Positions 10,600 to 39,155 of a DNA stretch of 64,000 nucleotides are shown here, piece by piece. Under the pieces are notes generated by a model. It was not told the origin of the DNA. It saw nothing but the letters and a program-made list of their open reading frames with translations, and searched no databases. The DNA is taken from NCBI GenBank assembly GCA_043228905.1, contig JBHGNT010000021.1, positions 2,976,001-3,040,000 of the forward strand. Reading direction: 5' to 3'. Numbering within the stretch: the first letter of the stretch is position 1; each line of letters opens with the position of its first letter. The position numbers and the translations under genes are program-made. The DNA comes from Azolla caroliniana (taxonomy: Eukaryota > Plantae > Polypodiophyta).

Positions 10600-11650
10600 C
10601 ATCTTCATGCTTCTTGGGCTTCTGTTGATGGAGCACACCTTTAATCTCGACAAATGGTCCCATAAACACAAATAATCTTTGTTTTGACCTCAATGAAGAC
10701 CCCACCTAACAATAATTTTTTAGACTCGGGACATGGGATACCATGTTGTTCAAGATTTCCATATAGCAATACGCTACAAGATTGGCCTCTCCTTTCATTT
10801 ACTTTGATTACGCACAATTTACAAAGCTTATTATCAATTCTACACATGTGTGGTTTTGAAATGACCTCATGGAGTTTTTCGACAGTGCCATGCAGAGATA
10901 ACCATTTTCTCAATGGTTATCAACATTCAACATTCAACACCACAAATCCACAAATGAGCCCCACCGCTCCCTCCAAAAACCTCAAACCGTCCTCCAACAC
11001 CAACATTTACCCTATCTACTTCTACCTTACTACTATTAAAGCCAAGATTTAGGCTTGTTCCCACTTTACGCTAAACCTTAATTCTTAATCTTTCTCTTCC
11101 CATCTTGTTTATATCAAATCACCATTCAAACAAGGATTTTAAGCTCCACCTATTTTAAAATTCAAATAGATGCAACTCATTTGATCCAATAAGGCTTACA
11201 CATTTAAATAAGACAATATTCTTAGAAATAATTGGTATGTTCACGCTGATACCTTCCTATATAGAATTACAAGAATTAATCATTATCTGGCCCATACATT
11301 TTTTATTGTGTCACTAACATTTCAAGACATTATCATACCTACTTGCACTCATCCTTAACCAATATTCCCAATAATGATCGTTGAAACCTCCCTGTATTTA
11401 AATTTATTGTTTAGTTATGGCTCATCATCATTTGATTTCTTTACTAATTCAAACATAATACATCATCATTTACAAACTTTGTTCAAGGAACATTGCATCA
11501 TCTTTAACAAGCTTTGATTGTTGATAATAGATATGCATCTTTTTAAAACAAGACAATCCAACTCATATAACATCTTGTTTTTTAGCTAGCTTATGGATTC
11601 CCTCTTTATTCATTGTGACATTGAGAATGTTGAATCAAGTTAACTTTACA
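10600..11650 (+). mobile_element. Highly decayed LINE-like remnant; part of the duplicated unit (homolog at ~19460-20040)
   Basis: 11060-11640 aligns with 19470-20030 (catttaaataa, tatagaatt, tttaacaagctttg, caatccaactca). LINE identity is inferred from broken RT-like frames. Confidence 0.45.
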
Positions 11651-12288
11651 AAATTGAGAATGTTCACAAATTGTTTGGAAACACATTTTTACAAGTGGTT
11701 GCACTTAAATCTGTTAATTCTTTATAGTTTTAGTTTTAGTTTTACTGAAAGTGTGTTTACAGTTTTTGGGTTATGCTGTGACAGTTTTGCTTTTGTGAAA
11801 AGTGTTTTCTGCAGTTAAGTTTGCTAATTCTTCATGATATCATTTTCATAGTAAGTGTTTGCACTTAAATTTGTTCATTCTTCATGATTTGGTGGTTTTA
11901 ACTTGAATCCAACCAATATTATATTAATGTCATATTAAAATTCTTTCGTCAAAAACAAACCAAGTTTTTAAATCATGTGAACATGATTTTAACGTCAATG
12001 AAAATAGAAGCCAATGTCAGATATGCCATATTAGATATTCAATGTTGTTCTTCAGTGTCCCTGTCAAATTATTTTGTTGATCAGAGTGAGATTAGACTTG
12101 GAAAGTTTCATCTTATAATGCCAAACTTAAGAGAACGACCCCATACTAGAGAACCAATGTCAACGATTTAAATTAAATAAGAAGAATAATAATAATCAAG
12201 CGTATATGTATAGATGTATATGTAAGTCTAGAATTGAATCTATTAACATGGCTATTATTTTTTAGCAAGAAGTAAAAACCTTTTTCTT

Positions 12289-35080: not shown

Positions 35081-37382
35081 TCAACCCATTGCATACTTCT
35101 GAGTCCAGTTTCTTGCTGTCCCTTCATACTTTGCACGATCTGTCTTGTACATATGAGCAATCTCAGGTACAAGAGGGTCATCGGGGTTTGGATCAGTAAG
35201 TAGAGAGCATACTGAAAGCAATACCTAACAAACATTTTTCATCACAAAAGAAAGAAGAGAAGGTTGATAGTTTAGTTATAATTACACTTGGAAAATATAT
35301 GGCTAGATACATAAATTTGTATATTGCGCAGTATGTTGAGCAAACACTAGACCTTAGGGAGTAGATACTTAAAAAAACATTGGAACATGGGTGGATAGAG
35401 TTTGGATATCTATTTACATAACAATTAAACCCTAGGTCTATGTCAAAACCATAGCTGTCCAAAAAATGGTAATGCTAATAATATAAGTATCCAAAAGAGA
35501 ACATACCTTTGATATGGTTAGGGCCGGACTCCATTGCTCTTTCAAAATATCTAAACATATACTTCCATTGCTATTAATGTTTGGGTGGAAAACTTTCGTC
35601 CGAAATGATACCTAATCAAATACAATGTACAGCATAAAATAAAATAAGAAAATTAAAATGAAAAAAGATGAAATCAAAAGCAGCGGCTCACTTCGTCACA
35701 GCAAAAACGGATTCTACTCATCAACCAAATTCTTATACATGAAGACATGGTACTTGCTCACTTATCAACTCATCCTTAATACATATAAGATAATAAATTC
35801 GCAACAATCAAGCCTAAGACTCGAATATCAAATCAAGATATGTTTGTGTGCACACAAACATACATGCATATGTATATTTTCTAACTCATCACCCTATACT
35901 CGCATATAAAGATACCTTTGCAATAACCAAACCAAAGGGAACTCGCTCATCAAATCAGCCAATGCCTATATATATATGCATGTATATAACTTCCAATAAC
36001 CTAAAGAAAAGTGACTATTTCATCAACACATATCCTTGCATGTATATCATGAACTATAAAATAAAACAGATGGGACTCACTCATCTCACACACACAGATA
36101 TGTATATTATCAATGAGTGTAAAATGAAACATAAGAAAGAGATTGACATATCAACCCAACCCAATGCTAGAATGTAGCTTGTAACAATCGAACACATCAA
36201 ACAAATGCTGTTAACTCATAAAGTAACACATAGAAAACAACTTGGGTGGCCTAAAAGAGTAAACCAAAGAAAATAACTCACTCACTGATATGTTTCAGTA
36301 CATATATATATATATATGAATGAACAGAAGGGACTCATTCATCTAAACAAGATGCACATACATAGGTCTAGATGAATATATCATGGAATATAATCAAACA
36401 AAAGGTGGGTTCGGTTGTTATCCAATGGAAGTGGATAACGTCGTGAGACAGTTCCATTCCTATCTATCGTTAGTTAGCAGAGAAGTGGGAGAAGCCTACC
36501 CTAGTAGGAAAGGACTCAAATCAATTCAAGATATTTTCTTAAAAAGGATCTAAAGGTAACCACAAAAACCTGTTTTGGAGATACGAAACCAAAAGAAGCA
36601 ACTCACACATCATCAAACCGACCAGATGTTAAGATGGAACTTGCAACAATCGAAGGGATCAAACAAATGCTGCTAGCTCAAAAGAATAACACATAGAAAA
36701 TAAATACCTTGGGTGGTTTGAAAGGGTAATCAGGAGGAAAATGAATATGAACTAGAAAAACCCCTCCTGCGTAAGGGCTATCAGAAGGGCCCATTATAGT
36801 AGCTTGCCAATGGAACATATCTTCCGCAACAGGTCCTGAAAGATGTCAAAAATGCATTTGTTACAATCCATAACGAGTTGCATTAAGCATAAACACATAC
36901 TCTGAGAAAATAGAGAACAGAAGATAACAAAACTGAGAGGAGAGATAGAGAGAGATAAACGGCGCGAAGATCAGATCACATCTAACAATGAATCTGAAAG
37001 GTATTTAGATCATATATATATATATATATAGTTTATAACACAAAAACCCTAAACTAGTACAGAGAATCAACATGAGAAAAAAGTAGAAACAAGCAGAGTG
37101 TAGAAGAAAAATCTATCTCCTAAACACATATGACTCTTAATTATTTTTCGCAGAAAGAAACAGTAACAAAAAGTTAACCTTACAACACATTTTTGAGCAG
37201 AAATATGCACAGAAGAAACAAACCCTAAAGACACTTGTATTTCTAACCAGAAATAAATTAAATGGAAGGAACCCTAGTTTATGTACGAAAAAGAAGAAGA
37301 AGAGAACCATACCTGCACTGCAAGATGTGGGCGGGTCTTTCTGCAGATCCTTGAGCTCCTTGAGGATCCTTTTCGAAGCCAT
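35081..37382 (-). CDS. UBC: Ubiquitin-conjugating enzyme E2, UBC8/9/10 (UBC4/5) family, 148 aa; exons 37382-37313, 36835-36708, 35611-35507, 35224-35081
   Basis: [40 protein letters not shown]...[93 protein letters not shown]; exon sizes 70+128+105+144=447; all introns GT-AG. Confidence 0.97.
36403..36516 (+). pseudogene. Degenerate organellar LSU rRNA fragment (probably mitochondrial rrn26 NUMT) in UBC intron 2
   Basis: gggttcggttgtt...aacgtcgtgagacagttc..ttcctatcta.cgtt...agcc.accctagta.ga.aggact matches the conserved peptidyl-transferase to sarcin-ricin-loop region (AACGUCGUGAGACAGUU; CUAGUACGAGAGGAC). Confidence 0.8.
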
Positions 37383-39155
37383 GGAGATGGAGAGAGAAAG
37401 AGAAAGAAAGAGGAAGCAGATACAGGGGCAGGGGCAGAGGAAAACACAGAGAAGAGAATATATATATATATATGTATATCTGATCTCTCTCTCTGTCTCT
37501 CCTCTCTCTTTCTCTCTGTATGTATGTATGTATGTTGTGTTATGCTCTGTTTTTATTTACTATATAGTATTTGTATGTATGTGTGTGCCTTGTGTTATGC
37601 CATGTTTTTTATGTACTATATAGTATTTGTTGGCTCAAGCTCAAGGCTGAGTCCTGGCTATTGCAAGTTGCAACCCAATCCATGTGAATGTGAAACCAAA
37701 AAGTATGTGCCGCTTCATCATCTTGGGTTGCATTTACTCATCTCTCGAGAGCTTCTCTGCATGAGTGGATTGGATTTGCATACAGACACCGAACTTACAT
37801 GGCCACGTTCATACACTACGATAGGATGATGGCTCAGAGTTTCATCCCCGTGCACTAGACTTTTGAGCATGAGTGCGCACCTCCTCCCGTACACATGTTG
37901 GCACACCTCTTCATTCCCATATACGTACCCATCCTATTAGCACTACCACACTCTTCACCAAGTACATTGCTTTGCTTTGCCAACAATCACGCATCAAAGG
38001 CTCGTTTGAGCTTCACAAGCTTAGGGAAGTGGCCCTTAACATTAGCATATGAGTCATGCATGAAATCAGAACATCATTGGATTCTTGCATGTACTTGCAC
38101 CCGTACTAACAATGTGTCTACGAGTCGTCATTTAATGAGTGAAGGGAATGTCGCAAGTATCGAGCTACATCACAAAGATCGCAATGTTCAAGCGGCATAG
38201 AGTCATTAGATGCAATCCACGTACTTTGCAATTGCCTTGCTCCATCACATCTAACATCATGGCCATGCACCCCACTCTTCCCATACATATTTATGATACA
38301 AGCCATGCTTGGAAAACCGTCAATAAAAATTTGTAAATCCTCACCCCATGCACACCTCATGTGACATTACAGGAGTTGCAAGTTGGAGAACAGGTGAAAG
38401 AAAATAATGATACTTATTATCATTATGGAGTAAGAGGAGATGGCCACTGGTGTGGACTAACCATTATGGCCCACTACGTTCTACATTCACTAAAAGTACA
38501 AGATCTCTTATCTCATTCTTTTTCTCTTAGTGAGTTCATCATGGCTAGAGCCATTGTAATGTTTTCAGCCTAATCATTTCGTCATGTATGAAGAATTTCT
38601 AGTGATGAAGAATAATTTTTCAGAAAATAAAAAAACAAATTGTTATATGGGAGGTTATAGCTTCCATTTTTTTCAAAATGGATAACCAATGTACCCTTAT
38701 TTATGATCATGATTTATCCCATAGGTTGATTTCCGCCTCTAATAAATCCCTCTCTCTACGTCGTTGCCTTTTCTCTTGTTCACGTTTGGCGAAAAAGAGT
38801 GTTCACATGATGGAGCTCAATAACCTTATGCATATTCTTCGGAGTGAACCTTAGGTAAACATTTTGAGATCAATTGGATGAGAATTTTAGTTATGTACCT
38901 TGCTACTTTCCAACTAGAGTCATATACACAATACTAATCATCGTGTTGGCAGTTCCTTCAATTCTACGTTTGATGCACATCCTTGCGACAAATCGATCTT
39001 GTTTTTATAAGGGGGTCCCCATTTTAATACTAGTTGGTGTCATAGGAACATCTTCTCCGGTTTCAGGGAATCATCCAATTTATGTTTGGGTATGCTTCCA
39101 ACTCGATCTTTTCTCTATGTTGGACTTGTGTTACTTCAGGCATCGAAGTGTCAAC

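What the first reader, a model, noticed from the sequence alone, without database searches (positions are those of the whole stretch)
11000..37400. Hidden four-unit tandem array of the UBC locus with a different fate for each copy
Four same-strand units (A ~11.0-14.6 kb, C ~19.4-21.5 kb, B ~24.9-28.5 kb, intact D ~34.5-37.5 kb) share 3'-UTR/downstream blocks, and A, B and D share intron 3. E2s of this family are normally extremely conserved, yet the copies here diverged drastically at the protein level while non-coding parts remain alignable.
Basis: partly seen in the sequence, partly recalled or inferred. Interest (0 to 1): 0.7.

Follow-up and report, generated by a model that had tools for sequence, protein, structure and literature searches.

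The report
Decaying copies of a ubiquitin enzyme
A plant gene for a ubiquitin-conjugating enzyme sits beside three degraded tandem copies of itself: two lost the active site and are now broken, likely after a spell as a non-catalytic protein, and the third makes a spliced RNA that would encode a small, unrelated, water-repelling peptide.

Summary
The four-unit array is real and locus-specific. D is an intact UBC8/UBE2D-type E2 gene; A, B and C are tandem copies on the same strand. Only a 92-bp piece of the shared sequence is a dispersed hAT repeat. The protein divergence is not anomalous in size: D–B exons differ at 34% of bases, intron 3 at 33%, dN≈dS, and neutral simulation reproduces B's 44% identity. 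A and B are broken, and a second haplotype lacks B's exons 1–2. Two points remain of interest. First, A and B share loss of the catalytic Cys85, the E3-binding residues and most of exon 4, which is the UEV layout. B kept all six splice dinucleotides and the frame of exons 1–3 (P about 0.003–0.1), so the A/B ancestor likely lived for a time as a fast-evolving non-catalytic protein. Positive selection on that stem is only marginal (p 0.03–0.12). Second, C kept the first intron donor and the 3′ UTR and is spliced in RNA-like contigs of two studies. Its first ORF is a 58-aa hydrophobic orphan; translation is untested. Verdict: ordinary birth-and-death of duplicates, with two testable leads.

The parts
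37313..37382 (-). Unit D exon 1 (ATG at 37382), intact UBC8/UBE2D-type E2
36708..36835 (-). Unit D exon 2 (Phe62 loop)
   Evidence: UQ_con 3e-14
35507..35611 (-). Unit D exon 3 (HPN motif, catalytic Cys85, SPA motif)
   Evidence: UQ_con 2e-13
35081..35224 (-). Unit D exon 4, ends at TGA
34850..35080 (-). D 3' UTR, homologous to the 3' blocks of A, B and C
28306..28375 (-). Unit B exon 1, 70 nt as in D, start codon lost; donor spliced in one RNA-like contig; deleted in the second haplotype
27784..27896 (-). Unit B exon 2, 15-nt in-frame deletion, premature TGA at 27870-27868; deleted in the second haplotype
25880..25993 (-). Unit B exon 3, net +9 nt, HPN kept, Cys85 lost, premature TAA at 25909-25907
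25540..25604 (-). Unit B exon 4 remnant, 79 nt deleted, frameshifted, early TGA
21105..21420 (-). Unit C exon 1: 5' UTR word shared with B, body of unknown origin, donor homologous to D intron 1
21151..21327 (-). Unit C first ORF, 58 aa, very hydrophobic (P0001), no homologue found
20929..21104 (-). Unit C intron (GT-AG, 176 nt), spliced in run X1; a second acceptor near 20469 in run X2
20270..20928 (-). Unit C exon 2, derived from the UBC 3' UTR and downstream flank
14237..14322 (-). Unit A exon 2 remnant: 3' half alignable, in-frame TAA near 14284 in both haplotypes; no recognisable exon 1
12682..12767 (-). Unit A exon 3 remnant: acceptor removed by a 441-bp deletion, one extra T, TGA at 12702; open and complete (102 nt) in the second haplotype, Cys85 lost in both
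12289..12342 (-). Unit A exon 4 remnant, 90 nt deleted in frame, ends at the stop homologous to D's
11858..11949 (-). 92-bp piece shared by A, B and C that matches a dispersed hAT element (89-93% to A)
11000..11702 (-). Downstream block shared by A and C (20070-19432); C's copy matched only this locus and its haplotype
16279..16526 (-). Upstream block shared by A and C (22458-22202); A's copy matched only this locus and its haplotype

Best explanation
D is an intact E2 gene and A, B and C are its tandem copies: A and B lost the catalytic cysteine and most of exon 4 and are now broken, likely after a period as an in-frame, fast-evolving non-catalytic protein, while C is a spliced transcript whose first ORF would encode a 58-aa hydrophobic peptide. 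Steps: (1) shown: local duplication of D's ancestor, introns included; (2) shown: one daughter lineage (A, B, C) gained a hAT-like piece downstream, and A and B share an enlarged intron 2 and nine derived residues; (3) inferred: that lineage changed about a third of its non-synonymous sites under weak or reversed constraint while selection still kept splicing and frame, which gave a UEV-like layout that could neither carry ubiquitin nor dock RING/U-box E3s in the usual way; (4) shown: further duplication, then stops, start loss and deletions, some still differing between haplotypes; (5) shown: C lost exons 2-4 and splices an exon 1 of unknown origin onto the old 3' UTR; inferred: it reuses the old promoter; untested: translation and function of the peptide.
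For: Locus-specific intron and UTR homology. Lesions in A and B. Terminal-branch omega 0.7-0.8, not different from 1 (p 0.25-0.43). B's exons 1-2 are absent in the second haplotype. For an earlier selected phase: 12 of 12 splice-site bases unchanged in B (P 0.007-0.07); no frameshift in 297 nt of B exons 1-3 where 4.3-5.8 are expected from the haplotype indel:SNP ratio (P 0.003-0.014; 0.045-0.10 at the lower confidence bound); second-haplotype A exon 3 open, with 0 stops in 63 aligned codons against 2.3-2.8 expected (P 0.06-0.085); 12 codons keep the residue between A and B through a synonymous change, 8 of them in exon 2; A-prime exon 3 still hits UQ_con (3e-4) and UEV (5e-3). C splice joints in runs X1 and X2 of two studies.
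Against: B's identity (45 of 105), stop count (2 vs 3.2-4.0) and substitution conservativeness are all within neutral simulation. Stem omega above 1 falls from p 0.03-0.04 to p 0.06-0.12 under other frequencies or with hand-placed codons removed. The ratio of D-side to terminal changes is the same in exons and non-coding DNA (Fisher p 0.19-0.87). The frame and splice tests are post hoc and use polymorphic indels, some of which may be assembly errors. A's unaligned exon-2 part, left out of the stop count, holds a TAA in both haplotypes. An ORF of 58 codons or more arises in 15.5% of exon-1 shuffles, and the aligned antisense frame of C's ORF is also open.
Confidence: 0.6

Rival explanations
1. 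Dead on arrival: the first copy was a pseudogene from the start and A, B and C all decayed neutrally, somewhat faster than D's constrained silent sites; C is a non-coding transcript with a chance ORF.
For: dN equals dS and equals intron-3 divergence; neutral simulation fits B; the all-neutral codon model is rejected only marginally; loss of the C-terminal helices and the cysteine is easy by chance at 34% divergence (inference).
Against: It needs the copy lineage to run 7-9 times faster than D's silent sites (0.45-0.56 vs 0.06), and leaves the kept splice sites and frame to luck. C's ORF is more hydrophobic than all 5000 shuffles and than the other 153 ATG-ORFs of 50 aa or more in the window, and has codon-position bias (p 0.015).
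Confidence: 0.27
2. C's exon 1 holds an inserted fragment of some hydrophilic coding sequence in antisense, so the membrane-like ORF is a by-product (the reverse complement of an A-rich frame reads hydrophobic).
For: The aligned plus-strand frame 21019-21345 is open for 108 codons; the ORF avoids all three codons that would stop it (P 0.033); both frames fit the local codon usage about equally (-2.7 vs -5.0).
Against: No donor found for that frame in the genome, Pfam or the Atlas; the spliced transcript runs on the minus strand by its GT-AG ends; the ORF starts at the first ATG of the transcript.
Confidence: 0.25
3. A working neofunctionalised pseudo-E2 still exists: the second-haplotype allele of A encodes a short UEV-like protein through an alternative exon-2 acceptor.
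For: A-prime exon 3 is open with both splice sites; window exon 4 ends in frame at the ancestral stop; an AG 35 nt before the exon-2 donor would skip the TAA in phase (seen in the sequence).
Against: No alignable exon 1 or start; the window allele is destroyed by a 441-bp deletion that run X1 also carries; without helix 1 and the first strands the fold could not form (established E2 structure, inference).
Confidence: 0.07
4. The shared blocks are copies of a transposon, not of the UBC locus.
For: A 92-bp piece matches a dispersed hAT element at 9 other places.
Against: Exon, intron and UTR homology to D is colinear and confined to this locus and its haplotype.
Confidence: 0.02

Closest known systems
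UBC8/UBE2D (UbcH5) class E2 enzymes
   Same: D has the HPN motif, Cys85, Phe62 and the SPA motif, and is 92-96% identical to five four-exon paralogues. PMC2396629 (passages) names Phe62 and Ser94-Pro95-Ala96 as E3 contacts. The family name UBC8 is recalled.
   Different: A and B replace Cys85, Phe62, Lys63 and the SPA motif and lose most of exon 4.
Ubiquitin E2 variants (UEV1/Mms2, TSG101-type UEV domain)
   Same: E2 fold without the catalytic cysteine (PMC2396629, passage) and without the two C-terminal helices (PMC7647121, passage). A-prime and B exon 3 hit Pfam UEV weakly (E 0.005 and 0.03, below cut-off).
   Different: A and B descend from D by shared introns, keep HPN (partly or wholly missing in Leishmania UEV1 per PMC7647121), and have no intact frame today. 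The likeness is convergent at most.
Duplicated (non-processed) pseudogenes in birth-and-death tandem arrays
   Same: Adjacent to the parent, introns kept, stops and deletions, omega near 1, residual transcription of B.
   Different: Splice sites and frame are better kept than expected, which hints at a late death.
De novo transmembrane small ORFs from T-rich DNA (PMC7005711, abstract)
   Same: Short orphan ORF, T-rich core (50 of 114 bases), strongly hydrophobic.
   Different: Here the ORF sits inside a recycled gene shell; its source DNA is unidentified and translation is untested. PMC12605812 (passage) warns that rearranged duplicates can be mistaken for de novo genes.

Membership tests
UBC8/UBE2D-type E2 (unit D) | Intact UBC core with HPN motif and catalytic cysteine | tested here: met
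UBC8/UBE2D-type E2 (unit D) | E3-contact residues Phe62 and SPA, high identity to class members | tested here: met
UBC8/UBE2D-type E2 (unit D) | Expression and thioester activity | not tested
UEV (units A, B) | E2-like sequence lacking the catalytic cysteine | tested here: met
   Tyr in A, Asn in B at position 85
UEV (units A, B) | Lacks the two C-terminal helices | tested here: met
   exon 4 shortened by 90 nt (A) and 79 nt (B); definition from PMC7647121 passage; helix positions on D are recalled
UEV (units A, B) | Intact reading frame giving a protein | tested here: not met
   stops, start loss, deletions
UEV (units A, B) | Descent from the Mms2/UEV1 or TSG101 lineages | tested here: not met
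   shares intron and UTR sequence with D
UEV (units A, B) | Non-covalent ubiquitin binding or pairing with an active E2 | not testable with these tools
   no intact protein exists to test
Duplicated pseudogene (A, B) | Parent's introns kept, disabling lesions present | tested here: met
Duplicated pseudogene (A, B) | Neutral evolution of the coding remnant | tested here: inconclusive
   omega near 1 on terminal branches but frame and splice sites kept
De novo or orphan small ORF gene (C) | Spliced transcript carrying the ORF | tested here: met
   GT-AG joints in contigs of 2 of 4 runs; the runs' RNA label is a guess
De novo or orphan small ORF gene (C) | No homologue in related lineages | tested here: inconclusive
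   none found, but the protein collection lacks close relatives: the control gene's best hit is 66%
De novo or orphan small ORF gene (C) | Non-coding ancestral sequence identified | tested here: inconclusive
   the ORF body aligns to none of 9 UBC pieces above chance (P 0.08-0.84; only the 5' UTR word matched B) and to no other locus
De novo or orphan small ORF gene (C) | Translation and selection on the ORF | not testable with these tools
   no ribosome or peptide data; 0 haplotype differences in the ORF but also none in the flanking intron
Dispersed transposon | Many dispersed copies of the shared blocks | tested here: not met
   only the 92-bp piece; counts are lower bounds

The most novel reading that the evidence does not exclude
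One of the most conserved eukaryotic enzymes gave rise, in this plant lineage, to an independently evolved UEV-type pseudo-enzyme (cysteine, E3 surface and last two helices shed in a burst of positive selection), and a sibling copy donated its promoter, first intron and 3' UTR to a newborn 58-aa membrane microprotein.
Probability: 0.17. Interest if true: 0.65.

Novelty: new member of a known kind. Interest (0 to 1): 0.33.

Why it matters
As it stands it is a clean local example of gene birth and death. If the stem phase was functional, it would show the ancient E2-to-UEV transition replayed recently enough to be dated and polarised from introns. If C's ORF is translated, it would be a case of a new membrane peptide arising inside the regulatory shell of a dead duplicate. 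Both can be settled with sister-species genomes and ribosome profiling.

Tried and rejected
Protein searches for intact relatives found nothing useful: C ORF, no candidate; A-prime/B exon-3 profile, 0 of 16 candidates; A-prime exon 3 against 1.84 billion representatives, 2 repeat-protein hits that are not E2s; Atlas hits below the reliable range for the C ORF and weak, family-less for its antisense frame. These blanks are uninformative because a neighbouring thaumatin gene has no hit above 66% either. PDB hits for A-prime exon 3 were all weak, E above 0.03. No RNA holder is on record in the run search. For A, 16 contigs of run X1 lay unspliced at low depth, with similar depth in the flank, so no claim on A's expression is made. 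A likeness between C's ORF and B's exon-4 remnant was tested at DNA level and is chance-level (P 0.12-0.16). A CpG-type C>T or G>A excess that would explain a fast copy lineage was not seen; A>G is the commonest change. The branching order of A, B and C is unresolved by UTR sites; shared flanks favour A with C. No Rfam family in 10500-38000 and no tRNA in the window. The single-sequence fold of C's peptide is one long helix and adds little. The scan's earlier findings held nothing.
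Full report
Setting. The window is G000:C21:2976001-3040000 of a 523-Mb plant genome, likely a fern: the closest hit with a species name to a neighbouring thaumatin gene is Ceratopteris at 60% (inference). Neighbours are a thioredoxin gene (about 5.7-8.2 kb), a PPR gene, the thaumatin gene, a LINE-like RT remnant and a Ras-family fragment.

The array. Self-comparison shows same-strand homology among four units on the minus strand. D is a complete 148-aa E2 with four GT-AG exons. A search with D's exon 4 gave 12 matches; I fetched 10 of the other 11. Six are four-exon genes and four are two-exon genes. None matches the introns of the units, whereas A and B align to D through exon 3, intron 3, exon 4 and the 3' UTR. 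Intron 3 differs from D by 33-34%, against 50-67% for 15 shuffles. C shares the start of intron 1 with D, an 18-nt 5' UTR word with B, the 3' UTR, and flanks with A. In 165-169 four-way UTR columns, 10-16 separate D from A, B and C together, and the internal order is unresolved.

Transposon test. A's 3' block had 18 genome matches: 9 are the array or contig C655, and 9 are confined to 92 bp. Six of those nine loci were fetched; they are copies of one repeat, and the one examined in detail has hAT transposase domains and a captured V-SNARE fragment. Four further blocks matched only this locus and C655, apart from one 87-bp hit from B's intron 2. These counts are lower bounds by the tool's own note.

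Second haplotype. C655 covers window 31561-12358 with 299 differences in 17,728 aligned bases and 30 indels; I read it as an allele (inference). It lacks 1081 bp that hold B's exons 1 and 2. It has 441 bp that the window lacks in A, and there A's exon 3 is complete and open. The contig ends before A's exon 4.

Fates. B has lost the start codon and has stops in exons 2 and 3 and a frameshifted, shortened exon 4, yet all six splice dinucleotides sit at their homologous places and exons 1-3 are 70, 113 and 114 nt, all in frame. A has no alignable exon 1, a TAA in exon 2 in both haplotypes, and an exon 4 shortened by 90 nt in frame. Both replace Cys85, Phe62 and the SPA motif and keep HPN; nine derived residues are shared. 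Loss of the cysteine and of the last two helices is the UEV layout (passages of PMC2396629 and PMC7647121), but descent is from D.

Is the protein change too large? No. D-B gives dN 0.48 and dS 0.49; D-A 0.58 and 0.68; A-B 0.35 and 0.63; D against paralogues dN 0.03-0.05 (five paralogues used, the duplicate of L013 and the four two-exon genes left out; codons placed by hand). Non-coding D-B distances are 0.36 (UTR), 0.46 (intron 3) and about 0.9-1.1 in introns 1 and 2, which are near noise. Random mutation of D's codons to B's distance gives 41-46 identical residues against 45 seen and 3.2-4.0 stops against 2. My own branch codon model gives terminal omega 0.7-0.8 (not different from 1) and stem omega 4-5.5 with p 0.03-0.04, falling to 2.8-3.7 with p 0.06-0.12 in three robustness runs. 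Positive selection is therefore not established.

Was the copy dead from the start? Probably not. Twelve splice-site bases unchanged has P 0.007-0.07. Of the 30 haplotype indels I dropped 10 in simple repeats and 3 over 50 bp; 13 of the remaining 17 would shift a frame, which predicts 4.3-5.8 frameshifts in B's exons 1-3 against none (P 0.003-0.014; up to 0.10 at the lower bound). A-prime has no stop in 63 aligned codons against 2.3-2.8 expected, though the unaligned part holds one. The all-neutral model also needs the copy lineage to run 7-9 times faster than D's silent sites. These tests are post hoc and each is modest; together they favour a phase as a fast-evolving, in-frame, non-catalytic protein.

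Transcripts. Four runs, all contigs and all only guessed to be RNA, were listed. In X1 a contig skips 21104-20929 with GT-AG ends; in X2 (another study) a contig joins the same donor to 20469; an X3 contig stops at the donor; one X2 contig at depth 2.9 skips B's intron 1 and matches the window across the exon-2 stop. X4 laid nothing. A showed only unspliced low-depth contigs.

C's ORF. The first ATG of the spliced transcript opens 58 codons. Its best 38-residue window (hydropathy 2.36) exceeds all 5000 shuffles and is the highest of 154 ATG-ORFs of 50 aa or more in the window. Against this, ORFs this long arise in 15.5% of exon shuffles, the aligned antisense frame is open too, and T-rich DNA readily yields membrane-like peptides (abstract of PMC7005711). 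No homologue or source sequence was found, but the collections lack close relatives. I put coding function at about one in three.

Literature. Three searches (listings only) showed no report of a lineage-specific UEV-like derivative of a UBC8/UBE2D gene in ferns; the library lacks most subscription papers and no supplement was read. Searches were seen as listings, apart from the four papers named above and PMC12605812's passages.

Verdict. A real, locus-specific tandem array undergoing ordinary birth and death. The protein divergence needs no special mechanism; the kept frame in the A/B lineage and the orphan ORF in C are worthwhile but unproven leads.

Noticed in passing
L005:1315-2869 (and L006-L010): The dispersed hAT element carries a V-SNARE_C gene fragment (E 5.5e-14) next to its transposase end, so it looks like a gene-capturing DNA transposon; its 92-bp piece is 93% identical to A, 83% to B, so capture from this locus is as possible as insertion into it.
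   Followed up: partly
window 12776-13293 (+), inside A intron 2; counterpart in B intron 2: Decayed fragments with weak likeness to retroelement reverse transcriptase (PDB E 0.3-0.95, no Pfam RT hit), antisense to the gene and shared by A and B, so older than their split. Observed only.
   Followed up: partly
window 20072-20275: A 203-bp G+C-richer insertion present in the window and absent in C655, covered by contigs of runs X1-X3 that run on into other sequence; likely a small mobile element.
   Followed up: no
window 20440-21327: About 900 bp of unit C with no difference between haplotypes against a mean of 1.7%; it spans ORF, intron and UTR alike, and 18-19 kb is nearly as flat.
   Followed up: partly
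window 17096-17278 and 28708-28899: Dispersed repeat, also upstream of two other UBC loci (L014, L019), with a tRNA-like look by eye; ARAGORN calls no tRNA, so possibly a SINE.
   Followed up: no
window 39859-43287 (-): Intronless 1142-aa PPR gene with an E motif and an internal 11-residue tandem repeat near its N-terminus (42602-42910).
   Followed up: no
L020:988-2601: A diverged two-exon UBC paralogue (46% and 69% to D by exon) with an acidic insertion in exon 1 and Asn after the catalytic Cys-Leu.
   Followed up: no
window 12748-12750: The extra T in A's exon 3 is absent from both C655 and a run X1 contig that does carry the 441-bp deletion, so it may be an assembly error or a third allele.
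   Followed up: no
window 52458-55695 (-): Broken LINE-like element with RT and zf-RVT domains.
   Followed up: no
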